DNA of 64,000 nucleotides from Gammaproteobacteria bacterium (lineage in GTDB: Bacteria; Pseudomonadota; Gammaproteobacteria; CBDBNL01; JAAOII01): NCBI GenBank assembly GCA_965207945.1, contig OZ242303.1, positions 1,408,935 to 1,472,934 of the forward strand, in the 5' to 3' direction. How positions within the stretch are numbered: position 1 is the first letter of the stretch; each line of letters starts with the position of its first letter. Below, one piece after another: positions 301 to 64,000 of this stretch. The notes below the pieces were generated by a model, which was not told the DNA's origin, made no database searches, and worked only from the letters and a program-made list of their open reading frames with translations. Made by a program: the position numbers and the translations under genes.

Positions 301-326
301 GATTTAGTTTCTTTAGCTACTTTCAT
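1..326 (-). CDS. N-terminal part of a second GLUG-repeat lipoprotein paralog; the gene continues past the window start
   Basis: Reverse-strand translation from ATG at 324-326 gives MKVAKETKSFSAIFMMAALVVFLTAC-GGGGGGGGG-APTPTPVTKLSKFTVQELNAIPGD..., nearly identical to the N-terminus of the 323..2008 gene. It has a lipobox (L-T-A-C) and no stop before the window edge. Its ATG overlaps the upstream gene's TGA as ATGA. Confidence 0.55.
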   Translation of the reverse strand, partial: MKVAKETKSFSAIFMMAALVVFLTACGGGGGGGGGAPTPTPVTKLSKFTVQELNAIPGDSSVILSWNNPNADIASINISYYNINIPNDPPTIVNSNQIDRNTPNVRQM

Positions 327-2008
327 GGACGCTGGGGGGCTAGCCCGTTGGGGGTGCAGGTGAGGGCTGGGTATTGGTTTGGGTTGCCTAAATTCCAGGC
401 ACGAGAACCATCATCGCACATCTCTCCTTCCCAAGTTTCATAAATACTCCCATCAAATGCCTCTGGCATCTTCAAGTTAACAGTGGTGTTGCCTGCGCTG
501 ACGTCATCCGGATCACGATTACCTATTGTTAGTGTTACATCACTACCACTGGTCTGGTTATCCCAATAAGAGTCGTTAATAGTTATAGTAGTGGCATGAC
601 CAACTAGACCGCCGACATTAATGCCCTCTTTAACATACTCTGCAGCAGCATAAGATGATGTGATCACGACATTATTAATAGAAGCACCAATCAAACCTCC
701 GATACTATTACCAGTGGAATTGATGACAACATCAGCTCCCACATAAGACGAAGTGATCTCTAATTCATCCCCATAGCCAACCAAACCGCCGACATTACTC
801 GTCGCGTTGACATGAGAGTCCTCCACATAAGACAAAGTGACCCCAGCACCGTTATCCGCCAGACCAACCAGACCGCCAACAGAACTACTCCCGATGACAG
901 AACCACCAACTGCATAAGACGAAGTTATGGTGGCACTCCCCCCATTACCAACCAGACCGCCGACTTGATTCGCTCCGCTTAAGACAGTAATATCCATCAC
1001 ATAAGACGAAGTGATGGTGGCACTCTCCCCATAACCAACCAAACCACCGACATAAAAACTAGAAGACGTAACCTTTCCTGATGCAGAACTATTACTAATG
1101 CTTGCACCCTCTGCATAACCAACCAGCAGCCCCGCATTATTATTTTGGGCGCTAATGTTGCCAGAACGGATATGAATATTATGCAGGACGGCAGTAGAGG
1201 AGATTGCGCCAAATAGTCCAGTCGGCTTAGCTTCAGAGTTTATTATAGTAAGATTATTGATTGTCCAACCATTGCCGTCAAAAGTTGCATTGAATGATAG
1301 CTTTCTATTAGTGCAAACCCCCGTAACGCCAAAAGAGCAGCTACCAATTGGTTCCCAGTTGGCATAGCCGTCAAGGGATATATTCTGCGTAAGCTCATAG
1401 CCGTTGCATGTAGTGATGCCGCTCTGACCGCCACAACCACGGGCATCACCAGCGAAAGATACACCATTAAGGTTTGCCCGTACCTGATTTAATTCCTCTG
1501 CATTATGTATCTCTATTAGTCCATTGCCGTTATCATCTACGTCCAGAAAATTAGGTGTGCCATCGCCATCATCATTAGGACCAATAGCCACAGTAGCAAC
1601 TGGAGCCGTTCCTTCTTTGCCTGTATCAGTGCCGTTTAATATCAAACTAACAGTGAAGTTATATGATTGTCCGTTGGTTAGGCCGCTGCTTATCATCTGT
1701 CGCACATTCGGAGTGTTGCGATCTATTTGGTTGCTGTTTACTATCGTGGGCGGATCATTGGGAATGTTTATGTTGTAGTAGCTTATATTAATGCTGGCTA
1801 TATCCGCATTGGGATTATTCCAGCTAAGAGTAACGTTACGGTCGCCAGGAATCGCATTTAGTTCTTGCACTGTAAACTTGGATAATTTGGTTGCGGGGGT
1901 GGGGGTGGGGGCGCCACCACCGCCACCGCCTCCACCACCGCAGGCAGTGAGGAAAACTACAAGGGCAGCCATCATTAAAATCGTATTAAAATCTTTTTGC
2001 ATAATCAA
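323..2008 (-). CDS. Surface lipoprotein with poly-Gly/Pro-Thr linker, Fn3-like N-region and multiple GLUG-motif repeats (GGLVG...ITSSY periodicity)
   Basis: 561-aa ORF. It has a signal peptide with lipobox FLTAC, then a G9 and PTPTP linker, then at least 8 repeats of about 25 aa each containing GGLVG(Y/N)G...ATITSSY, which is typical of GLUG-motif adhesin/IgA-protease-like repeats. Confidence 0.7.
   Translation of the reverse strand: MIMQKDFNTILMMAALVVFLTACGGGGGGGGGAPTPTPATKLSKFTVQELNAIPGDRNVTLSWNNPNADIASINISYYNINIPNDPPTIVNSNQIDRNTPNVRQMISSGLTNGQSYNFTVSLILNGTDTGKEGTAPVATVAIGPNDDGDGTPNFLDVDDNGNGLIEIHNAEELNQVRANLNGVSFAGDARGCGGQSGITTCNGYELTQNISLDGYANWEPIGSCSFGVTGVCTNRKLSFNATFDGNGWTINNLTIINSEAKPTGLFGAISSTAVLHNIHIRSGNISAQNNNAGLLVGYAEGASISNSSASGKVTSSSFYVGGLVGYGESATITSSYVMDITVLSGANQVGGLVGNGGSATITSSYAVGGSVIGSSSVGGLVGLADNGAGVTLSYVEDSHVNATSNVGGLVGYGDELEITSSYVGADVVINSTGNSIGGLIGASINNVVITSSYAAAEYVKEGINVGGLVGHATTITINDSYWDNQTSGSDVTLTIGNRDPDDVSAGNTTVNLKMPEAFDGSIYETWEGEMCDDGSRAWNLGNPNQYPALTCTPNGLAPQRP
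1692..1991. repeat. Copy B of the duplicated 5' gene segment
   Basis: See copy A. Confidence 0.85.
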
Positions 2009-54033: not shown

Positions 54034-55815
54034 TTAATCCTTGAACTCAATGGGTGGGTAACCCTTAATCTCAATTCCTTTATGAGTTACGTGAATCTCG
54101 TTATCTCCAGTTGGGATGTCTGCCAATTGATAGCGCACCTTAAAATTGCCCGACTCTGCTTGACTTATGTACTCGTTAATTCTTGCCAAAGTTTTTTCAC
54201 GTTTAGGGATAGCTCGTTTAATTTTCTTGCTACCAACCAATTTTTTATACATTGCCTGTGCCTGCTGCGGCGACAAAAGTAGCGCAGTGGCATTATTGCC
54301 CCCAAATCCTTTCGCATTAATCAGGGCTACATCCATTGCTTCTACACCAATATCATTGTGTGCTAAATTAAAGCGCAGGTTTTCAGTGGCAACATCCGTT
54401 GCAAGATGCTGGACGGTGCTTATACCAGGCAATATGCCGTGCTTCCAAAAACCAAGAGCGGTGCTGAGTTGGTCGCCGCCTGCAGTTGCCTGCGAGTGGC
54501 CAAGATATGATTTAATTGCCAGGACGTTCCAGTCCTTTATGCCAAACGCTGCAGCAACCGAAGATAGTATTTGTGATTCTGTTACGCGGTTTTGTGGGGT
54601 TGAGGTGCCGTGGGCATGAACATAAGATGATTTACGCAGAGTTTTACTCCCTAATAATTTTTCGGCGGCATAAGCTGCTTTGCCCATAGTAATGTAGTTG
54701 CCAGGACCAGGAGAAGAGATGGAACGTTTTGCCCCATCTGCGCTGATAAATACATCTGGCACTGCTCCATGGATTGTTGCTCCCAGGTTACAGGCAACTT
54801 CCTCTGATGCCAGAATTACAAATTGCGCCGATTCACCCATTACAAAGCCGGAATTATCACCAAATGGCAAACTCGCTTTGCTGAAGTCGGGGTTGTTGGG
54901 GTTATTGGGGTTGTTGGGATTATTAGAATTACCTTTGTCATTGATGGCGCCGCTAACATCAAGCTTTTTATCTGAAGTCATTGCCCCCATATTGTAAAAA
55001 GCACTCATTAACTGCGGCAGAATTGGCGCTTCGCTGGTGCCAACTACTGCCATACTTAATTCACCAGATTTTATATTATGAGCTGCCAAAGATAGATTGT
55101 AAAGAAAGGTGGCGCAAGCGCCACATTGATTACCTGTTTGCCCCAGATTATTAAGCACATAAGCATTAACGAAGTCAGCGCTCATCTGCGGGTAACTAAA
55201 TGGCAGCTGCTTAGTAATGGTTTTTACGCGGCGCAGCATTGAGGTTAGCACCCCGCCCATACCTGCTAAGTCCAACTGCCCAAGAGAATTACCGGCATAT
55301 ACTGCCAGCTTGTCGGGGGCAACTACTGAGCGAATAGTGGGGATATCCAAACCAGCAGAGTTGAGGGCATCATTGGCGGCAAACACTGCCATCTGTAAAG
55401 AACGGGGGTGATTATGAGATGTGTATAGTTTGCCTGGGTTGAATTCATCTGGCAAGGAAGCAGCAAAACTTATGGGGAATGATTCGGAGTTACCGTTGGT
55501 GCGGTAATAGGAAGTGGTCCGTGGGTCAAAATGATTTGTTTGGTTGATGGCACGAATGAAGAACCTGTCTGCCAAAGCGGCAGGGTCTTTGTTGATGGAG
55601 TGAGTGGCGCTTGATGAGGTAGCACTTGATGAAGTAGTGCTGGAAGATTTTGGGGATTCTTTCTGACTCATCAGTAACTTATGCAGCGAATCGTATAGTT
55701 TCTTCCTTGCTGCAGTTGACAACTCTGGAGCTACTATGTTGCGGTATGCTTGGTCTGTAGACGATATGCCGCCAGAGTTAATCCCGCCGTATCCTATTAT
55801 TAATGGTAAATGCAT
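54034..55815 (-). CDS. Divergent long (593 aa) beta-ketoacyl synthase family protein
   Basis: Cys nucleophile context (GNQCGACATFL), HAHGTSTP and GHSQATAG His motifs in KAS I/II order. It has an atypical N-terminus (IIGYGGINSGG) and Ser/Thr-rich and NPNNPNNPNNP inserts. Confidence 0.7.
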   Translation of the reverse strand: MHLPLIIGYGGINSGGISSTDQAYRNIVAPELSTAARKKLYDSLHKLLMSQKESPKSSSTTSSSATSSSATHSINKDPAALADRFFIRAINQTNHFDPRTTSYYRTNGNSESFPISFAASLPDEFNPGKLYTSHNHPRSLQMAVFAANDALNSAGLDIPTIRSVVAPDKLAVYAGNSLGQLDLAGMGGVLTSMLRRVKTITKQLPFSYPQMSADFVNAYVLNNLGQTGNQCGACATFLYNLSLAAHNIKSGELSMAVVGTSEAPILPQLMSAFYNMGAMTSDKKLDVSGAINDKGNSNNPNNPNNPNNPDFSKASLPFGDNSGFVMGESAQFVILASEEVACNLGATIHGAVPDVFISADGAKRSISSPGPGNYITMGKAAYAAEKLLGSKTLRKSSYVHAHGTSTPQNRVTESQILSSVAAAFGIKDWNVLAIKSYLGHSQATAGGDQLSTALGFWKHGILPGISTVQHLATDVATENLRFNLAHNDIGVEAMDVALINAKGFGGNNATALLLSPQQAQAMYKKLVGSKKIKRAIPKREKTLARINEYISQAESGNFKVRYQLADIPTGDNEIHVTHKGIEIKGYPPIEFKD

Positions 55816-55947: not shown

Positions 55948-56020
<73 letters not shown>

Positions 56021-59268: not shown

Positions 59269-60375
59269 CTATAATCGGTATTGTTGGTATGCCTCTTCAT
59301 ATTGTGGAAACATTATAAACATTGCGCGCTCTAGTTTGTATATTCTATCTACTAACTCATTATTGCTGTAGTAGCTATCATAAGCACCCTTAGTGGAAAC
59401 ATTAAGTGGCGGCATTTCTTTGATGAAGTTTATGTCGTGCGGTGGATAGCCCTGTTGCAGTAAAAAATCATAAGTATCTTGGTTAAGATTAGCCGTCTGC
59501 ATAAAGTTTATGTTATTTAGCTCTTTTTTATATTCGCCACTGTTGAAGTATTCAAGATATTCTTTTTCATTTAAGTTCATTACCTCCAAAGGATTGCGGA
59601 AAAAAAACCACAAGAATAAGAAGGATTGTAGTCCTATATGTTGCGGCGCTTGTGTGGCGGCAGATGACTTAGCAAGCCGAGAAAATTCATCGGAAGATAC
59701 ATCGGAAAATACATCGGAAAATACATCGGAAAATACATCAACAGGATATTGGTATCTGTCTATTCCGCTGTTAGCTGCCATAGCGGCAGTGTAGCTTTTA
59801 TAATAAATTGCTTGCGTTTCCATCATCTGCTTGTCGCAATAACGACTAAAGTTGTTGAAGTCGCCAACCTTATGGCATATTTGAGCGGCATGAATGTTAT
59901 TGGGGCGGCGATTCTTGTAATAGTTGAAACGAGAAATATGCCAGCGGAATGGGTTATTTATACAGCCCAGAATTGGAAGATTAGCAAGCGATGCAGGCAA
60001 CTGAGAACGGCGCGAATGAACTAAAAACATTACTAATGGTTTGGAAGGAGGCAATAGTTTAGTGAAAGATGCTATTTTGAGAAGCAAACGAGATATTATT
60101 TTTCTTTTATAAGGTGATTTGCCAAAGGACGCAAGAGTAAAATCATGTAGCTCGCTGTGGCTGTACTCTGAAGTTGCTAAAGGATAGATTAATCTCTCCA
60201 TCCGTTGTCTTGTAGCGGGAAAGATTTTCATGATAATGGTAATTATCTTGCCTAATGGCGAACCACTTAAAAACATATTAAGATGGGCGCGCAGTAGAAC
60301 ACTGCGCATCCAAGTGCCACCTGTTTTGGGCAGATGAATAAAAATAAATTTGTCTGTAATCCTCATATTACTCAC
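59269..60375 (-). CDS. Sulfotransferase-family protein; paralog 1, with a degenerate 3'-PB motif
   Basis: Has the 5'-PSB motif FIHLPKTGGTW, but the expected RDP...S motif reads INNPFRWHISRFNYY. It has a DVFSDVFSDVFSD repeat. The C-terminus is nearly identical to paralog 2 (VDRIYKLERAMFIMFPQYEE). Confidence 0.6.
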   Translation of the reverse strand: MSNMRITDKFIFIHLPKTGGTWMRSVLLRAHLNMFLSGSPLGKIITIIMKIFPATRQRMERLIYPLATSEYSHSELHDFTLASFGKSPYKRKIISRLLLKIASFTKLLPPSKPLVMFLVHSRRSQLPASLANLPILGCINNPFRWHISRFNYYKNRRPNNIHAAQICHKVGDFNNFSRYCDKQMMETQAIYYKSYTAAMAANSGIDRYQYPVDVFSDVFSDVFSDVSSDEFSRLAKSSAATQAPQHIGLQSFLFLWFFFRNPLEVMNLNEKEYLEYFNSGEYKKELNNINFMQTANLNQDTYDFLLQQGYPPHDINFIKEMPPLNVSTKGAYDSYYSNNELVDRIYKLERAMFIMFPQYEEAYQQYRL

Positions 60376-60457: not shown

Positions 60458-61525
60458 ATGATAATTACCCGTAGATTTGTTTTTATTCATCTGCCTAAGA
60501 GCGCAGGTATGTGGGCGCATAAAGCCATTGAGCAAGCGCACTTAAATTTGTTTTTTCGTAAGACACCATTAGGGGAAATTCTATTCACTCTTGGCAAGCA
60601 CCTACCCTTTGCCTTTGCTCGCCAGACAATATATAAAATAGCCAAGCGTCTAGTTATTTTTAACTATAGGTATTATGATATCAGTAATCTTTCTATTAAG
60701 AACTATCATGATCCTCTGGGTAGCTCTAAGATAAAATGGTTCATCTTTTTTGCCCAAGGAATGCATCTGTTGGATGTTAAATATGAAACCATGCTGCGCC
60801 TACAACGTCATACCAGGTACGCGCAACTGCCAGAGTTCTTTCAAGAGCTGCCGATATTGGCGGCTATACGCGACCCTTTTAGCTGGCATGTCTCGCGCTA
60901 TAACTATTATAAGGAACAAGAGAGTAAGCAGATTATAGGCAGCGGGAACAGCGCTCAAAGCTTTATTAAAATTTTAGGCGATAATATTGATTTTGACCAA
61001 TACTGCTCAAACAAGATGATGAAATTACAGGATTTCTTTTATCAAGGGTATAACAACTATATCAAAAATCAAAAGGATGGTGAAGAGGTGCCGCAATATC
61101 ATGATGAGCTGATAGATTTTTATAATCCCGCTGATAATAATTGCCCGCCCGCCAAACACTATGGGTTAATGACCTTAAGATTTATTCAGCTATTTTTCAA
61201 ACGTCCGCTTGATGTTGTGAACCTGCCACCAGCTGAGTTTGAACAATACTTTATAGATGGCAAGTATAAGGATAATTTGAAGAATATTACTTTTTTGCAA
61301 CAGGACAAGATAAACCAACAGCTGTATGATTATATGATTAAGCTACGTTATGAAGCGCAAGACCTGCAGCATATTAAGGACTTACCGCCAGAAAATGTGT
61401 CCACAGAGAAGCCCTATAAAAGCTTTTATACTTCTAAGAATATGGTGGATAGAATATATAAACTGGAACGGGCAATTTTTATAATGTTTCCTCAGTATGA
61501 GGAGGTGTATAAACTGTATAAATAG
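60458..61525 (+). CDS. Sulfotransferase-family protein; paralog 2, with canonical motifs
   Basis: Has the 5'-PSB motif FIHLPKSAGMW and an intact 3'-PB motif IRDPFSWHVSRYNYY. It is transcribed divergently from paralog 1. Confidence 0.6.
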   Translation: MIITRRFVFIHLPKSAGMWAHKAIEQAHLNLFFRKTPLGEILFTLGKHLPFAFARQTIYKIAKRLVIFNYRYYDISNLSIKNYHDPLGSSKIKWFIFFAQGMHLLDVKYETMLRLQRHTRYAQLPEFFQELPILAAIRDPFSWHVSRYNYYKEQESKQIIGSGNSAQSFIKILGDNIDFDQYCSNKMMKLQDFFYQGYNNYIKNQKDGEEVPQYHDELIDFYNPADNNCPPAKHYGLMTLRFIQLFFKRPLDVVNLPPAEFEQYFIDGKYKDNLKNITFLQQDKINQQLYDYMIKLRYEAQDLQHIKDLPPENVSTEKPYKSFYTSKNMVDRIYKLERAIFIMFPQYEEVYKLYK

Positions 61526-61540
61526 CTTCTCAGTTTGATA

Positions 61541-64000
61541 TCAATTTGGCACTTGGTTGGTATTTAAGATAAATATTTCAATTTGGGATATTATGCTGTC
61601 GGTAATATCTTTTTCGTTATTTGCCAAGTAATTGGCTTTCCTAAGATTGTACTTGACTATGATTCTTAATTTAGCGCGAGATTTTTCTCTTATGTTCCAG
61701 TCAATTGTTGCATTAGACCTTAAGTCATTTAGTATAACCTTAGCTAACTTTATAAGCTCGTCATTCTTCAGTATGGCTTTATCGCTTTGATTATTGCTTT
61801 GATGATCTATGAGGATAGAATAAAGCGCGTAAACTTCTTCCGATGCCCCAAGGTTATTCCTTTCTTTCTCCCACTCTCTTAATTCCAACGCTAGTTCTAT
61901 TAAGGAACTAATTAATTTATCTTTATCAGAAGAACGTTTTGTCGATTTATTTAGAATTGCAAATAACTTGCTAGCAAACTTATCGCCAGTAACAAAATTA
62001 TTTTTCCCCACATTAATGATTATAAGATGGACTAGCTTGGCAAGAATCCGCAATTCCAGATTAGGACAATCCATCTCATGGATGCGCGCCAGTAGTTCGT
62101 CTGTCAGAAATTGCGGCTGCAGCTGGGCTTCCTTATCTTTATCATAAAACTCTGCTAAAGAACCTTTAACAATTGAATCATCTGCCATGTATAACAGTTC
62201 GTTGGATGATTCGCTATTAATTTCAAGCAACGCTAAGCTTTTTCTTAAGGTATGGAAAAATTCCAGGTTCTTGTTAGCAGCTGCTTTGGTGGATATCACC
62301 ATAGAATGAGCTAAAGAAAAATTGCTAAGTAGACGAGTGAATTTATCAATAGAAAAATATAAGACGTATTCTTGCGCCCGCCTAATAATGGCAAGTCGTT
62401 GTTTTTTATTCGCTTGCGAATATGGTTCATGATTGAAGTCACAGAAAAAACCCAGCATTTTTTTATGTTGCTGTTCCATTGTAGTTATTGCCTCTTGCAT
62501 ATCTTGTATTGGCGCCCCATCGCCTCCCCTTTTTATATAATCTTTGCTCATCTCATTCAAGTAGTCGCCAATGCCCATATAATCAGCTATGAGACCTCCT
62601 GGTTTGTTGATGCGAGCATTATTGACAATAGAAATTGCCTGCATAAGTTGCCTACCCTGCAACGGTTTATCCCAATATAGGACATCTAAACAAGCAGCAT
62701 CAAATCCAGTTAGCCACATATCTCTGACTATCACCAATCTAAGCGAGTCGTTGGAATCTTTAAACCTAGCGCCTAATATCTTTCTTTCCTTTTGAGTAGT
62801 TTGATGTTTTCCCCAAGATGATAGTTCTTCAGTGGAAGGCGCCATTAAAACCTTAATCTTACCCTTGAGTATATTGTCGTCTTGCCATTGGGGGCGTAGT
62901 TTAATGATTTCCTTGTATAGGTCAACTGCGATGCGACGACTCATCGTGGCAATGATTCCCTTTCCTTGAAGAACCGATGAATACTGCTCAAAATGATTAA
63001 CTATATCTTGAGCTATTAATTTTAATCTGCTGGGGTTGGCTAAAAATTTTTCCATTTTTTGCCAACTAACAGTATTAGGATTCTTGCCAGAAAAATCCAC
63101 CTCTGCAATATCTTCCTTTACTCGGTCCTCAGGGGCTATATGAATTTTGGTAAGACGCTTTTCATAATAAACATTAACAATTGACTTGTCGTTGAGCGCT
63201 TGTTTAATATCATATATATCAATGTAGTCGCCAAATAGATTATCTGCCGAAGTATCTGCAGAATCATCATGCGGATAATTGGGGGTGTAGCCAAAACCAA
63301 GGACGGTGGCATTGGGGAGAAAATTCTCTTTTAAGTAATTGGCGAATACTTTGACGTTTTTATCCTTTGTGTTGGCATTGCCAAATCCATAGCGACTGAG
63401 ATGCACTCCATTTACTATGACAAAAATATTGTTCCTGTCAGATAATACTTTGGGCGCAGCTCCCTTCCCTGAATAAAATTTCTGGATGGTGGTGAATATT
63501 ACCCCCCCTCCTGAAGTACTAAGCAGCTTTTTTAGGGATGAATGACTATCCGCCTGAATGGGTGCCTGATGCAATAACTGCTTGCCCCCCACAAATGTTT
63601 GGAATATCTGCTCATCCATATCATTGCGGTCGGAGATAAATACCAAAGTGGGATTTTGCGCTGGCGAATTCCTGATTATCTTGCCAGCATAAAATAGCAT
63701 GGTAAGAGCGTTATCAGTACCGTAAGTGTGGCAAAGAATGCCTCCTTTTTTGTTTCCTGAGCCCTGTAATTGCTGTACTTCTTGAATATTCACCTTGGGA
63801 GAGTATTTGCGCTTATGCGATTTAGCGCCTACTGGCGGAATATAAGAGCCGATATTTATCTCAGATAAGCCATAGTAGCTTTTGTCTACTTCGTCCATTG
63901 CAATATCAGCAGCATTAATAGTTGAAGCAATCGCACGATTAACTCCATAGTATTGATGATAAGTTCCTATGTCTTTTACAAGAATATTTGTCATCATTTG
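61541..64000 (-). CDS. hsdR: Type I restriction enzyme R-subunit (HsdR)-like protein, partial (N-terminus beyond the window); all ATPase catalytic residues are substituted
   Basis: Strong HsdR scaffold: TLVFISDRNDMDEQIF, GGVIFTTIQKF, FGDYIDIYDIKQAL, YYEKRL, GFDAACLDVLYWDKP. But the Walker A GSGKS is replaced by GTDNA (CHTYGTDNALTM), DEAHRSQ by NGVHLSR, TGTP by GYTP, and motif VI QAIxRVNR by QAISIVNNAR. Confidence 0.8.
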   Translation of the reverse strand, partial: QMMTNILVKDIGTYHQYYGVNRAIASTINAADIAMDEVDKSYYGLSEINIGSYIPPVGAKSHKRKYSPKVNIQEVQQLQGSGNKKGGILCHTYGTDNALTMLFYAGKIIRNSPAQNPTLVFISDRNDMDEQIFQTFVGGKQLLHQAPIQADSHSSLKKLLSTSGGGVIFTTIQKFYSGKGAAPKVLSDRNNIFVIVNGVHLSRYGFGNANTKDKNVKVFANYLKENFLPNATVLGFGYTPNYPHDDSADTSADNLFGDYIDIYDIKQALNDKSIVNVYYEKRLTKIHIAPEDRVKEDIAEVDFSGKNPNTVSWQKMEKFLANPSRLKLIAQDIVNHFEQYSSVLQGKGIIATMSRRIAVDLYKEIIKLRPQWQDDNILKGKIKVLMAPSTEELSSWGKHQTTQKERKILGARFKDSNDSLRLVIVRDMWLTGFDAACLDVLYWDKPLQGRQLMQAISIVNNARINKPGGLIADYMGIGDYLNEMSKDYIKRGGDGAPIQDMQEAITTMEQQHKKMLGFFCDFNHEPYSQANKKQRLAIIRRAQEYVLYFSIDKFTRLLSNFSLAHSMVISTKAAANKNLEFFHTLRKSLALLEINSESSNELLYMADDSIVKGSLAEFYDKDKEAQLQPQFLTDELLARIHEMDCPNLELRILAKLVHLIIINVGKNNFVTGDKFASKLFAILNKSTKRSSDKDKLISSLIELALELREWEKERNNLGASEEVYALYSILIDHQSNNQSDKAILKNDELIKLAKVILNDLRSNATIDWNIREKSRAKLRIIVKYNLRKANYLANNEKDITDSIISQIEIFILNTNQVPN

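What the first reader, a model, noticed from the sequence alone, without database searches (positions are those of the whole stretch)
61541..64000. Intact HsdR-like ORF with every ATPase catalytic residue replaced: candidate pseudo-translocase
The 818 aa visible in the window align with canonical type I R-subunits motif by motif, and the structural motifs are almost unchanged (TDRNDLD, TTIQKF, FGDYID.YDI, YYE.RL, GFDAP.L..Y.DKP). Yet the Walker A reads GTDNA instead of GSGKS, so the lysine is lost. The DEAH box reads NGVH, and both motif VI arginines read I and N. Random decay of a pseudogene would also produce frameshifts or stops, and none are present over about 2.4 kb. Removing only the ATP-hydrolysis residues while keeping the scaffold points to selection for an ATPase-dead HsdR. 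Such a protein could be a regulatory or anti-restriction subunit, a DNA-binding or complex-forming pseudoenzyme, or a recently inactivated restriction system in an island. No hsdM or hsdS lies downstream of it in the window.
Basis: partly seen in the sequence, partly recalled or inferred. Interest (0 to 1): 0.7.

Follow-up and report, generated by a model that had tools for sequence, protein, structure and literature searches.

The report
Ancient, selected, catalytically dead HsdR subunit
A full-length type I restriction-enzyme motor subunit has lost the key residues it needs to burn ATP or cut DNA, yet natural selection has kept it intact across a clade of small-genome Gammaproteobacteria, so it most likely now does a non-enzymatic job beside a still-active DNA methyltransferase.

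Summary
Window 61541-64000 (minus strand) encodes the C-terminal 819 residues of an intact 1085-aa HsdR homologue. Walker A reads GTDNA, box II reads NGVH and motif VI reads SIVNN. Outside the window the nuclease ExK lysine and the QxxxY motif are also lost.

It is not a decaying pseudogene. Across four related genomes dN/dS is 0.08-0.15 (dS up to 0.31), the same as neighbouring housekeeping genes, and every domain is constrained. Syntenic orthologues with the same dead motifs occur in at least three more, deeply diverged lineages (30-36% identity; NrdB 83%). The full-length ones form one clade.

About 36% of family-invariant columns have changed, and HsdR evolved much faster than its partner HsdM.

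hsdM and hsdS do exist, immediately upstream and outside the window. HsdM is catalytically intact in every lineage. hsdS is missing from the locus in two lineages.

Best reading: an anciently inactivated R subunit kept as a non-catalytic partner in a domesticated type I methylation locus. The exact role is unknown. I found no description of this in the literature searched. I rate it a new variant of a known kind, of moderately high interest.

The parts
61541..64000 (-). C-terminal 819 codons plus stop of the hsdR-like gene. The full product is 1085 aa (P0396); the N-terminal 266 aa, with the degenerate nuclease domain, lie beyond the window edge.
   Evidence: ORF and translation. Pfam SWI2_SNF2, T1R_D3-like, T1RH-like_C. 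Identical to the P0396 tail. Full length scores 366 bits on TIGR00348, cutoff 284.55. dN/dS 0.12-0.15.
63701..63730 (-). Degenerate motif I (Walker A): HTYGTDNALT in place of HTQGSGKSLS. The P-loop Lys and Ser are lost.
   Evidence: Aligned to GSGKT of EcoR124I and to GSGKS of the canonical relatives. In these columns K was found in 125 and S in 119 of 149 cluster representatives. Coordinates.
63608..63634 (-). Motif Ia retained (SDRNDMDEQ versus canonical TDRNDLDDQ).
   Evidence: This motif is retained in the window's clade but degenerate in the deeper dead lineages P0126 and P0139.
63476..63496 (-). Motif Ic retained (FTTIQKF).
   Evidence: K440 of this motif is kept in all three dead lineages.
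63386..63421 (-). Degenerate motif II (Walker B / DEAH box): VIVNGVHLSRYG in place of VIADEAHRSQYG. The Asp and Glu are lost.
   Evidence: Aligned to DECH of EcoR124I. D, E, A and the following R are lost in all three dead lineages. Coordinates.
63281..63298 (-). Degenerate motif III: GFGYTP in place of GFTGTP.
62693..62728 (-). Motif V largely retained: VRDMWLTGFDAA (canonical VRDMWLTGFDAP).
   Evidence: L692 and F695 are kept in all dead lineages; P698 is lost in all.
62615..62647 (-). Degenerate motif VI: LMQAISIVNNA in place of LMQAIARVNRV. Both arginines are lost.
   Evidence: Aligned to QAFSRTNR of EcoR124I.
61544..62533 (-). C-terminal helical domain (T1RH-like_C; residues about 756-1085 of the full protein). 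In canonical enzymes this is the region that docks on the methyltransferase.
   Evidence: Pfam PF11867 2.1e-48. dN/dS 0.11-0.21 in this domain. The docking role comes from published EcoR124I structures and is my own knowledge; it was not tested here.

Best explanation
This is an anciently inactivated HsdR, the motor-nuclease subunit of a type I restriction-modification enzyme. It has been retained as a folded, non-catalytic protein, that is, a pseudoenzyme.

**Inferred history.** A type I hsdM-hsdS-hsdR operon became fixed between nrdAB-glpD and aroK/sigma in the ancestor of a clade of small-genome, probably host-associated Gammaproteobacteria. HsdR then lost the Walker A Lys/Ser, the DEAH Asp/Glu, motif VI arginine(s) and the nuclease ExK Lys.

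**Shown here.** Since then the gene has been kept open and under purifying selection, while the methyltransferase subunit HsdM stayed catalytically intact.

**Inferred function.**
- The protein can no longer hydrolyse ATP, translocate DNA or cut it.
- It probably still docks on HsdM (and on HsdS where present) through its conserved helicase-fold and C-terminal helical domains.
- The locus would therefore work as a restriction-less methylation / DNA-binding module, with the dead R subunit as a structural or regulatory accessory.

**Sub-confidences.** Selected non-catalytic HsdR: about 0.9. It acts together with HsdM: about 0.4-0.5.
For: **1. The fold and architecture are kept.**
- Pfam finds HSDR_N, SWI2_SNF2, T1R_D3-like and T1RH-like_C.
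- The AF2 model (pLDDT 69.7) has EcoR124I HsdR as its top Foldseek match (E 4e-22).

**2. The catalytic residues are gone.**
- This holds in the alignments.
- In EcoKI the single Walker A change K477R gives a holoenzyme that still forms but cannot hydrolyse ATP, translocate or cleave (PMC4231737).

**3. Purifying selection is clear.**
- Pairwise dN/dS is 0.12-0.15 with dS 0.18-0.31 (Fisher p 1e-27 to 1e-62).
- By domain: nuclease 0.10, RecA1 0.07-0.12, RecA2 0.16-0.25, C-terminal helical 0.11-0.21.
- Single branches give 0.08-0.16.
- Neighbouring genes: hsdM 0.09, hsdS 0.145, ddl 0.15-0.2, KAS 0.1. A non-coding-like ORF gives 0.66-0.8.
- Indels among the four copies are 12-nt and in frame, except one 1-nt deletion.
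- A neutral simulation predicts many stop codons.

**4. The dead state is conserved over deep time.**
- Syntenic orthologues P0139/P0400 (L084, L086), P0126 (L083) and P0185 (L087) have the same catalytic losses and are 30-36% identical to the window's clade.
- Over the same divergence NrdB is 83%, and NrdA and HsdM are 68%.
- The three full-length dead lineages are monophyletic in 200 of 200 NJ bootstraps and share 19 derived residues.

**5. The positions lost in every lineage are mostly catalytic.**
- Of 82 columns at least 90% conserved in 96 canonical representatives, 12 are lost in all three dead lineages.
- Most are catalytic-motif positions: the ExK Lys, Walker A K and S, DEAH D/E/A and the following R, and the second motif VI Arg. 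The other four lie in or near motifs Ia, III and V.
- The replacements differ between lineages (K to N/L/L; D to N/H/M), which indicates released constraint rather than new chemistry.
- 35 columns are kept in all three.

**6. The partner genes are conserved.**
- HsdM carries NPPF and DPCCGSG in all lineages. For L087 only the N-terminal 172 aa of HsdM is on the contig, so these motifs could not be checked there.
- HsdM is as similar to canonical HsdMs as those are to each other.
- HsdS orthologues are 48-52% identical over both target-recognition domains, against 22-35% to unrelated systems. This suggests a stable specificity.
Against: - There is no experimental or expression evidence.
- hsdS is absent from the locus in L087 and in the L083/L088 genome, and hsdR is about 62 kb from hsdM in the latter. 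An obligate M2S1 partnership is therefore not universal, unless hsdS sits elsewhere, which I could not check.
- DNA-contact motifs Ia and III are degenerate in the deeper lineages.
- HsdR evolves much faster than HsdM: 30% versus 68% identity, against an R/M identity ratio of about 0.87 in canonical pairs. Constraint is therefore weaker than in active enzymes.
- Some assemblies carry split copies (L002, plus 28-kb and 10-kb contigs). L002's own branch shows no relaxation (0.08), and the low-coverage contig L087 has many split genes.
- The AF2 model is only of moderate confidence.
Confidence: 0.55

Rival explanations
1. The dead HsdR has a new role that does not involve the methyltransferase. 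It could be a DNA- or protein-binding scaffold, and it merely sits at the old R-M locus.
For: - In the L083/L088 genome hsdR is separated from hsdM by about 62 kb, and no hsdS is adjacent to either gene.
- In L087, hsdM and hsdR are divergent neighbours with only 367 nt between them and no hsdS.
- The three dead lineages share 19 derived residues, which could mark a new interface.
- RecA2 is the best-conserved domain among the dead lineages, at 47-50%.
Against: - An intact hsdM is found in every lineage that has the dead hsdR.
- hsdM stays adjacent to hsdR in the window's clade, in L084/L086 and in L087.
- The C-terminal helical domain is still under purifying selection.
- Whether hsdS exists elsewhere in these genomes was not testable.
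Confidence: 0.3
2. The gene is a recently inactivated restriction subunit that is decaying as a pseudogene and has simply not yet acquired stops.
For: - Many invariant positions are changed.
- One related genome (L002) has a 1-nt deletion that splits the ORF, and two short contigs carry split copies.
Against: - dN/dS is 0.08-0.15 on every pair and branch, including L002's own branch downstream of the frameshift (28 synonymous against 7 non-synonymous changes).
- The dead motifs are shared by syntenic orthologues only 30-36% identical, each with a full-length ORF of 996-1085 aa.
- A neutral simulation gives about 6 stops at 0.05 substitutions per site.
Confidence: 0.03
3. It acts as a decoy or dominant-negative R subunit. 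It would occupy the methyltransferase, or bind unmethylated sites, and so suppress restriction (self-protection or restriction alleviation) or block incoming DNA without cutting it.
For: It is compatible with retained assembly surfaces and loss of catalysis. In EcoKI, ATPase-dead HsdR still forms a holoenzyme.
Against: - No active hsdR paralogue is seen in the window or in the fetched loci.
- A decoy needs something to antagonise.
- Whole genomes could not be searched, so this is untested rather than excluded.
Confidence: 0.07
4. The protein is still an active motor or nuclease that uses non-canonical residues, or the motifs are only mis-aligned.
For: Several SF2 motifs remain in the window's clade (Ia, Ic, IV, V).
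Against: - Three independent alignments agree on the registration.
- The P-loop Lys, the Walker B acids and the second motif VI Arg are lost in every lineage.
- The replacement residues are not conserved between dead lineages, so no alternative active site is under selection.
- Single substitutions in these motifs abolish EcoKI activity.
Confidence: 0.02

Closest known systems
Canonical HsdR subunits of type I R-M systems with a T1RH-like_C C-terminal domain (TIGR00348; PADLOC REase_I PDLC03040; for example P0003 and P0005; EcoR124I HsdR as structural reference)
   Same: - It has the same four-domain architecture and fold.
- It has the same operon partners (hsdM, hsdS).
- The full-length protein still passes the TIGR00348 cutoff (366 bits against 284.55), so annotation pipelines would name it a restriction subunit.
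   Different: - Walker A, DEAH, motif III, motif VI and the nuclease ExK/QxxxY residues are replaced.
- It is 32-40% identical to canonical members, whereas canonical pairs at the same HsdM divergence are 47-63% identical.
- It scores far lower on TIGR00348 than a canonical member does (637 bits).
Engineered ATPase-dead HsdR mutants of EcoKI (K477R; substitutions in any of the seven DEAD-box motifs)
   Same: They lose Walker A / DEAD-box function. The mutant subunit still assembles into a holoenzyme that cannot hydrolyse ATP, translocate or cleave (PMC4231737; it cites Davies et al. 1998). This is the best experimental model for what the natural protein can and cannot do.
   Different: - Those are single laboratory substitutions in an otherwise optimal enzyme.
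- Here many motifs are lost at once, the nuclease is dead too, and the state is natural, ancient and maintained by selection.
Type I methyltransferases acting as epigenetic regulators independently of restriction (SpnD39III, EcoKI; PMC13624659)
   Same: There is a conserved, catalytically intact HsdM (with HsdS) whose value to the cell need not be defence. Where hsdS is present it looks vertically inherited and stable.
   Different: - In those systems HsdR is either active or irrelevant.
- Here a dead HsdR is itself conserved, which implies that it contributes something.
Domesticated defence systems that lost their nuclease/helicase effector (for example CRISPR-associated transposons and type IV CRISPR-Cas lacking Cas3). 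This analogy is from my own knowledge.
   Same: A targeting or complex-forming scaffold of an immune system is kept while the destructive activity is lost.
   Different: - The protein families are unrelated.
- No mobile-element association is seen here.
- The effector gene is kept as a dead protein rather than deleted.

Membership tests
Functional type I restriction subunit HsdR | Four-domain architecture: N-terminal PD-(D/E)xK domain, two RecA-like SF2 domains and a C-terminal helical domain | tested here: met
   Pfam HSDR_N, SWI2_SNF2, T1R_D3-like and T1RH-like_C on P0001 and on the window fragment. The top Foldseek match is EcoR124I HsdR, E 4e-22.
Functional type I restriction subunit HsdR | Score above the curated cutoff of NCBIfam TIGR00348 (hsdR) | tested here: met
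   - Full-length P0396 scores 366 bits against a cutoff of 284.55.
- The window fragment alone scores 270.1, below the cutoff.
- Deep orthologues P0126 (247.6) and P0139 (272.5) fall below it; canonical P0003 scores 637.5.
Functional type I restriction subunit HsdR | Walker A GxGK[ST] (motif I) | tested here: not met
   It reads GTDNA. K and S are lost here and in all dead lineages.
Functional type I restriction subunit HsdR | DE(A/C)H box (motif II, Walker B) | tested here: not met
   It reads NGVH in the window and NGIH in L001. P0126 and P0139 have HD and MG at the two acidic positions.
Functional type I restriction subunit HsdR | Motif VI arginines (QxxxRxxR) | tested here: not met
   It reads QAISIVNN; both arginines are replaced.
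Functional type I restriction subunit HsdR | PD-(D/E)xK nuclease triad plus the QxxxY motif | tested here: not met
   This part lies outside the window and was read in P0396, P0001 and P0002. PD and E are kept, but ELK becomes EFG (Lys lost), and the QxxxY region is disrupted with an insertion.
Functional type I restriction subunit HsdR | Encoded with hsdM and hsdS | tested here: met
   The order hsdM(518 aa)-hsdS(402 aa)-hsdR is found in L001, L002 and L003. These genes lie outside the window in the window's own genome. The feature is not met in L083 or L087, where hsdS is missing from the locus.
Functional type I restriction subunit HsdR | [quoted passage not shown] | not testable with these tools
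   This needs biochemistry. It is predicted to be absent from the motif losses and from the EcoKI K477R precedent.
Pseudoenzyme (catalytically dead homologue retained by selection) | Clear homology to an enzyme family together with loss of essential catalytic residues | tested here: met
Pseudoenzyme (catalytically dead homologue retained by selection) | Purifying selection on the coding sequence after the loss | tested here: met
   dN/dS is 0.08-0.15 and every domain is constrained. In a second lineage it is 0.26, from only 18 changes.
Pseudoenzyme (catalytically dead homologue retained by selection) | The dead state is conserved across divergent species | tested here: met
   Syntenic orthologues occur in L083, L084/L086 and L087. 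The three full-length dead lineages are monophyletic.
Pseudoenzyme (catalytically dead homologue retained by selection) | Demonstrated lack of activity and a demonstrated non-catalytic function | not testable with these tools
   This requires protein expression, an ATPase/nuclease assay and genetics.
R-less ('orphan') type I methyltransferase system | hsdM (and hsdS) intact, with no hsdR gene | tested here: not met
   HsdM is intact (NPPF, DPCCGSG), but an hsdR-derived gene is present and conserved.

The most novel reading that the evidence does not exclude
A type I R-M complex has been domesticated across a whole clade. A catalytically dead HsdR would serve as a sequence-targeted but non-translocating DNA-bound factor, recruited by HsdM/HsdS (or by HsdM alone in the lineages without hsdS). 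It could act as a natural roadblock, a nucleoid organiser or a modulator of methylation in host-restricted bacteria. That would give HsdR-fold proteins a regulatory role distinct from defence.
Probability: 0.2. Interest if true: 0.8.

Novelty: new variant of a known kind. Interest (0 to 1): 0.62.

Why it matters
- **A new kind of R subunit.** Type I R subunits are normally thought of as either active defence motors or decaying pseudogenes. Here one has lost ATPase and nuclease chemistry, yet its 3.2-kb ORF has been kept under purifying selection through deep divergence in small genomes, where useless DNA is normally lost. The HsdR scaffold therefore seems to have a selectable non-catalytic function.
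- **An experimental handle.** This bears on the non-defence roles of R-M systems, such as epigenetic regulation and DNA binding.
- **A caution for annotation.** The full-length protein still passes the curated hsdR model, so pipelines and defence-system finders would count it as a working restriction enzyme.

Tried and rejected
1. **Motif shift or mis-alignment: rejected.** I tested it with HMMER against PDB chains, MAFFT with 110 close-family members and MAFFT with 149 diverse representatives.
2. **Recent pseudogene: rejected.** dN/dS, branch-specific counts, the neutral simulation and the deep orthologues all argue against it.
3. **Genomic island or HGT: rejected.**
   - The window is ordinary chromosome (PBP1A, PriA, tkt, rnfC, dnaX, ilvA, pepA).
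   - The locus is syntenic across lineages.
   - GC is 0.38 against 0.42 for the window, which is unremarkable.
4. **Intermediate relatives: none found.** The 5.8-billion-protein search, the 1.84-billion-representative search and a metagenome-contig scan found nothing between the dead clade and canonical HsdRs at no more than 40% identity.
5. **'orf71' between hsdS and hsdR as a fourth component: rejected.** It has dN/dS 0.28-0.54 and no family match, and the spacer is only 157 nt in L084.
6. **The two conserved unknown neighbours as system components: no evidence of a link.** They are paralogues, sulfotransferase-like in one orthologue, have no defence-family hit, and are convergent with hsdR.
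7. **Literature: nothing found.** Four searches for natural ATPase-dead or pseudoenzyme HsdR gave nothing relevant. A search for the run and accession identifiers gave nothing.
8. **Exact taxonomy: not resolved.**
   - The best named transketolase hits are generic Gammaproteobacteria at 57-59%.
   - One related lineage is labelled 'Candidatus Portiera sp.' in NCBI.
Full report
**1. What is in the window**

- Positions 61541-64000 carry a minus-strand ORF. Its stop codon (TGA) is at 61541-61543, and the frame runs open to the window edge, 819 codons in all.
- Pfam finds the SF2 motor domain (SWI2_SNF2, 2.6e-44), T1R_D3-like and the type I R C-terminal domain (T1RH-like_C, 2.1e-48).
- HMMER against PDB sequences aligns it with EcoR124I HsdR. 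GTDNA lies opposite GSGKT, NGVH opposite DECH, and QAISIVNN opposite QAFSRTNR.
- The 819 residues are identical to the C-terminus of database protein P0396 (1085 aa, from a 1.86-Mb contig). The complete gene is therefore intact, with 266 N-terminal residues outside the window.
- Full-length P0396 scores 366 bits on NCBIfam TIGR00348 (cutoff 284.55). A canonical relative scores 637. Automatic annotation would therefore call this a restriction subunit.

**2. Are the motifs really lost?**

Yes. I aligned the protein with 110 full-length relatives from a protein search and with 149 representatives of 50%-identity clusters. The registration is the same in both.

| Motif | Canonical | Here |
|---|---|---|
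| I (Walker A) | HTQGSGKS | HTYGTDNA |
| II (DEAH) | DEAHR | NG(V/I)HL |
| III | TGTP | GYTP |
| VI | ARVNR | SIVNN |
| Nuclease ExK (outside window) | ELK | EFG (Lys lost) |

- The QxxxY region of the nuclease domain is also disrupted, with an insertion.
- "Only the ATPase residues were removed" is not accurate.
  - Of 282 columns at least 97% conserved in the canonical relatives, this protein keeps 64%. Canonical members keep at least 95.7%, with a median of 99.6%.
  - Its HsdM partner is 50-62% identical to canonical HsdMs, which is normal for the family. HsdR is 32-35% identical, where canonical pairs at the same HsdM divergence are 47-63%.
  - The whole R subunit has therefore evolved fast.

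**3. Context**

- The closest genomes are L001, L002 and L003. L003 is OZ242292.1, 'MAG: Gammaproteobacteria bacterium', 2.06 Mb.
- They show the order gyrA-nrdA-nrdB-glpD-like-(NYN)-hsdM(518 aa)-hsdS(402 aa)-hsdR, followed by two paralogous unknown genes, a sigma-70-family factor, aroK and ddl.
- The window covers this locus from hsdR downstream. hsdM and hsdS therefore lie just beyond its edge.
- The window contains no other hsd gene. Otherwise it holds housekeeping genes.
- HsdM has its catalytic NPPF and SAM-binding DPCCGSG motifs.

**4. Selection**

- Nei-Gojobori dN/dS for hsdR among the window, L001, L002 and L003 is 0.12-0.15, with dS 0.18-0.31. The closest pair gives 0.24.
- Fisher tests against neutrality give p from 1e-27 to 1e-62.
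- Neighbouring genes give similar values:

| Gene | dN/dS |
|---|---|
| hsdM | 0.09 |
| hsdS | 0.145 |
| nrdA | 0.06-0.14 |
| glpD-like | 0.14 |
| ddl | 0.15-0.20 |
| KAS | 0.10 |
| trkH | 0.10 |
| small ORF that is probably not a gene | 0.66-0.80 |

- Every domain of hsdR is constrained: nuclease 0.10, RecA1 0.07-0.12, RecA2 0.16-0.25, C-terminal helical 0.11-0.21.
- Indels among the four copies are 12-nt and in frame. The exception is a single 1-nt deletion in L002 (GG to G between A-runs), which splits that ORF.
- L002's own branch has dN/dS 0.08, with 28 synonymous against 7 non-synonymous changes downstream of the frameshift. The deletion is therefore an assembly error or very recent.
- A neutral simulation of this ORF gives about 6 stops at 0.05 substitutions per site and about 27 at 0.3.

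**5. Deep conservation**

- The exhaustive representative search found no relative between 50% and 93% identity.
- Among the weaker hits, several HsdR-like proteins also lack the catalytic residues.
  - P0126 (996 aa) has K to L, DE to HD, and R..R to Q..G.
  - P0139 (1020 aa) has K to L and DE to MG.
  - The fragment P0185 shows similar losses.
- Their genomic contexts show that they are orthologues.
  - L084/L086 carry nrdA-nrdB-glpD-NYN-hsdM-hsdS-hsdR-unkA-unkB-aroK.
  - L087 carries hsdM-hsdR-unkA-unkB-aroK-sigma-ddl.
  - L083 carries hsdR-unkA-unkB-aroK-sigma.
  - In the L083 genome hsdM is at the ancestral site, gyrA-nrdA-nrdB-glpD-hsdM-NYN, about 62 kb away on the same contig.
- Amino-acid identity between L001 and L084:

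| Protein | Identity |
|---|---|
| NrdB | 83% |
| NrdA | 68% |
| HsdM | 68% |
| GlpD-like | 56% |
| HsdS | 52% |
| unkA | 50% |
| unkB | 45% |
| HsdR | 30% |

- The three full-length dead proteins form a clade in 200 of 200 NJ bootstraps. Long-branch attraction is a caveat here, but synteny is independent support. They also share 19 derived residues, for example Q to Y just before the P-loop.
- Of 82 columns at least 90% conserved in 96 canonical representatives, 12 are lost in all three dead lineages.
  - They are the ExK Lys, Walker A Lys and Ser, a motif Ia Leu, DEAH D/E/A and the following Arg, a motif III Gly, T514, the motif V Pro and the second motif VI Arg.
  - The replacements differ between lineages.
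  - 35 columns are kept in all three.
  - This is the pattern expected if catalysis was abandoned once, early, while the fold stayed under constraint.
- A second-lineage pair (L084 against L086) has few differences: 9 synonymous and 9 non-synonymous, giving dN/dS 0.26.

**6. Partners**

- HsdM carries NPPF and DPCCGSG in all full-length copies examined.
- HsdS orthologues are 48-52% identical over both target-recognition domains across the deep split. Against unrelated systems of the same family they are 22-35%. This suggests a vertically inherited, stable specificity rather than arms-race turnover.
- hsdS is missing from the locus in L087, where a 367-nt gap separates hsdM and hsdR. No hsdS is adjacent to hsdM or hsdR in the L083/L088 genome.
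- I could not search those genomes in full.

**7. Structure**

- An AF2 model of P0001, built on a 58-sequence alignment, has mean pLDDT 69.7 and pTM 0.63.
- Its low-confidence stretches include lineage-specific insertions.
- Foldseek against the PDB returns EcoR124I HsdR chains first (E 4e-22, TM 0.45-0.58).
- The fold is that of HsdR.

**8. Mechanism**

*Shown:*
- The gene is an intact HsdR-fold gene.
- Residues needed for ATP binding and hydrolysis and for DNA cleavage are lost.
- Purifying selection acts on all domains.
- The gene is orthologous across deeply diverged lineages.
- An intact HsdM is retained alongside it.

*From established knowledge:*
- In EcoKI, K477R in Walker A gives a holoenzyme that forms but cannot hydrolyse ATP, translocate or cleave.
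- A substitution in any of the seven DEAD-box motifs impairs the ATPase and the endonuclease (PMC4231737, citing Davies et al. 1998).
- SF2 motifs I, II and VI bind and hydrolyse ATP. This last point is my own knowledge.

*Inferred:*
- The protein is a non-catalytic subunit.
- It most likely still assembles with the methyltransferase, so the locus is a restriction-less methylation / DNA-binding module.

*The main rival:*
- The protein may have an HsdM/HsdS-independent scaffold role.
- The loss of hsdS in two lineages and the unlinking of hsdR from hsdM in one favour this.

Methylation by type I systems is known to regulate transcription independently of restriction (PMC13624659). That gives a plausible selective value for the MTase part of the locus, but it does not explain why the dead R is kept.

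**9. Organism**

- The relatives come from contigs of 1.1-2.2 Mb.
- Transketolase is at most 71% identical to anything outside the immediate group, and 57-59% identical to named free-living Gammaproteobacteria.
- The NrdB of the L084 lineage is identical to an NCBI protein labelled 'MAG: Candidatus Portiera sp.'. NCBI places that genus in Johnevansiales.
- A scan of the metagenome-contig collection returned only canonical HsdRs.
- A host-associated lifestyle is my inference, not a demonstrated fact.

**10. Novelty**

- Four full-text literature searches found no description of a naturally ATPase- and nuclease-dead HsdR kept under selection.
- Partial catalytic loss also appears in a few unrelated HsdR clusters (P0132, P0174, P0197). 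Inactivation may therefore recur.
- The long-term, clade-wide, selected retention shown here is what is unusual.
- I class it as a new variant of a known kind. Interest is about 0.6.

Noticed in passing
window 60458-61525 (+) and 59269-60375 (-): Two paralogous genes of unknown function (355 and 368 aa; the L001 orthologues are 34% identical to each other) sit next to the dead hsdR in every lineage examined (L001-L003, L083, L084/L086, L087). The window copies match no Pfam or PADLOC family. One orthologue (L086 13617-14678) matches Sulfotransfer_1 at 25.5 bits, above the cutoff of 22.
   Followed up: partly
L002 6156-6752; L084 5827-6462; L086 5861-6496; L088 11568-12224; L090 2946-3578: A NYN-domain gene (PADLOC candidate HEC-09, 1.4e-26) is adjacent to hsdM in five loci across several lineages, but absent in L001 and L003. 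It may be a conserved partner of the methyltransferase.
   Followed up: partly
L001 9785-10000 (hsdS-hsdR spacer; outside the window): A called 71-aa ORF between hsdS and hsdR has dN/dS 0.28-0.54 and matches no family. The spacer is only 157 nt in L084, so the ORF is probably not a gene; the spacer may hold hsdR's own promoter.
   Followed up: partly
L002 about 11745 (alignment column 1746); also P0393+P0395 and P0394+P0397 on short contigs: Some assemblies carry split copies of the dead hsdR. In L002 the cause is a 1-nt deletion (GG to G between A-runs). L002's own branch shows no relaxed selection, so this is either an assembly error or a very recent change. Read-level evidence was not available.
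   Followed up: partly
L087 (ERZ26868619 ctg10355, 1.76x coverage), 516-886: hsdM and the dead hsdR are divergent neighbours with only 367 nt between them and no hsdS. Several genes on this low-coverage contig are split (sigma, ddl, hsdR), presumably by sequencing errors.
   Followed up: partly
L091 6001-9450 (P0174); L092 5220-8327 (P0132); P0197: Unrelated HsdR cluster representatives also have several catalytic residues replaced.
- P0174 comes from a groundwater metagenome. It has no adjacent hsdM or hsdS, lies between YibE_F and PPDK/enolase, and is seen on 6 contigs.
- P0132 sits in an hsdM-hsdS-338aa-hsdR-1200aa (PNP_UDP_1 + HATPase_c_4) cluster.

Catalytic loss in HsdR may therefore recur independently.
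   Followed up: partly
window 323-2008 (-); L083 1-9593: The window encodes a 561-aa GLUG-motif protein. In L083, giant genes of 2501 aa and 2913 aa (the latter with peptidase S8) lie directly upstream of hsdR in place of hsdM and hsdS. Large surface or secreted proteins of this kind are compatible with a host-associated lifestyle.
   Followed up: no
L001 18641-18946 and the corresponding window region between ddl and the KAS-like gene (about 55.8-56.1 kb): A called 101-aa ORF has dN/dS 0.66-0.80 and frame-breaking indels between genomes, so it is probably not coding. A tRNA lies in this spacer in the window (55948-56020).
   Followed up: no
window 54034-55815 (-): A 593-aa ketoacyl-synthase-like protein with only weak KAS domain scores (1.6e-12 and 2.4e-10) is conserved in all relatives at dN/dS about 0.1. 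It is an unusually long and divergent KAS.
   Followed up: no
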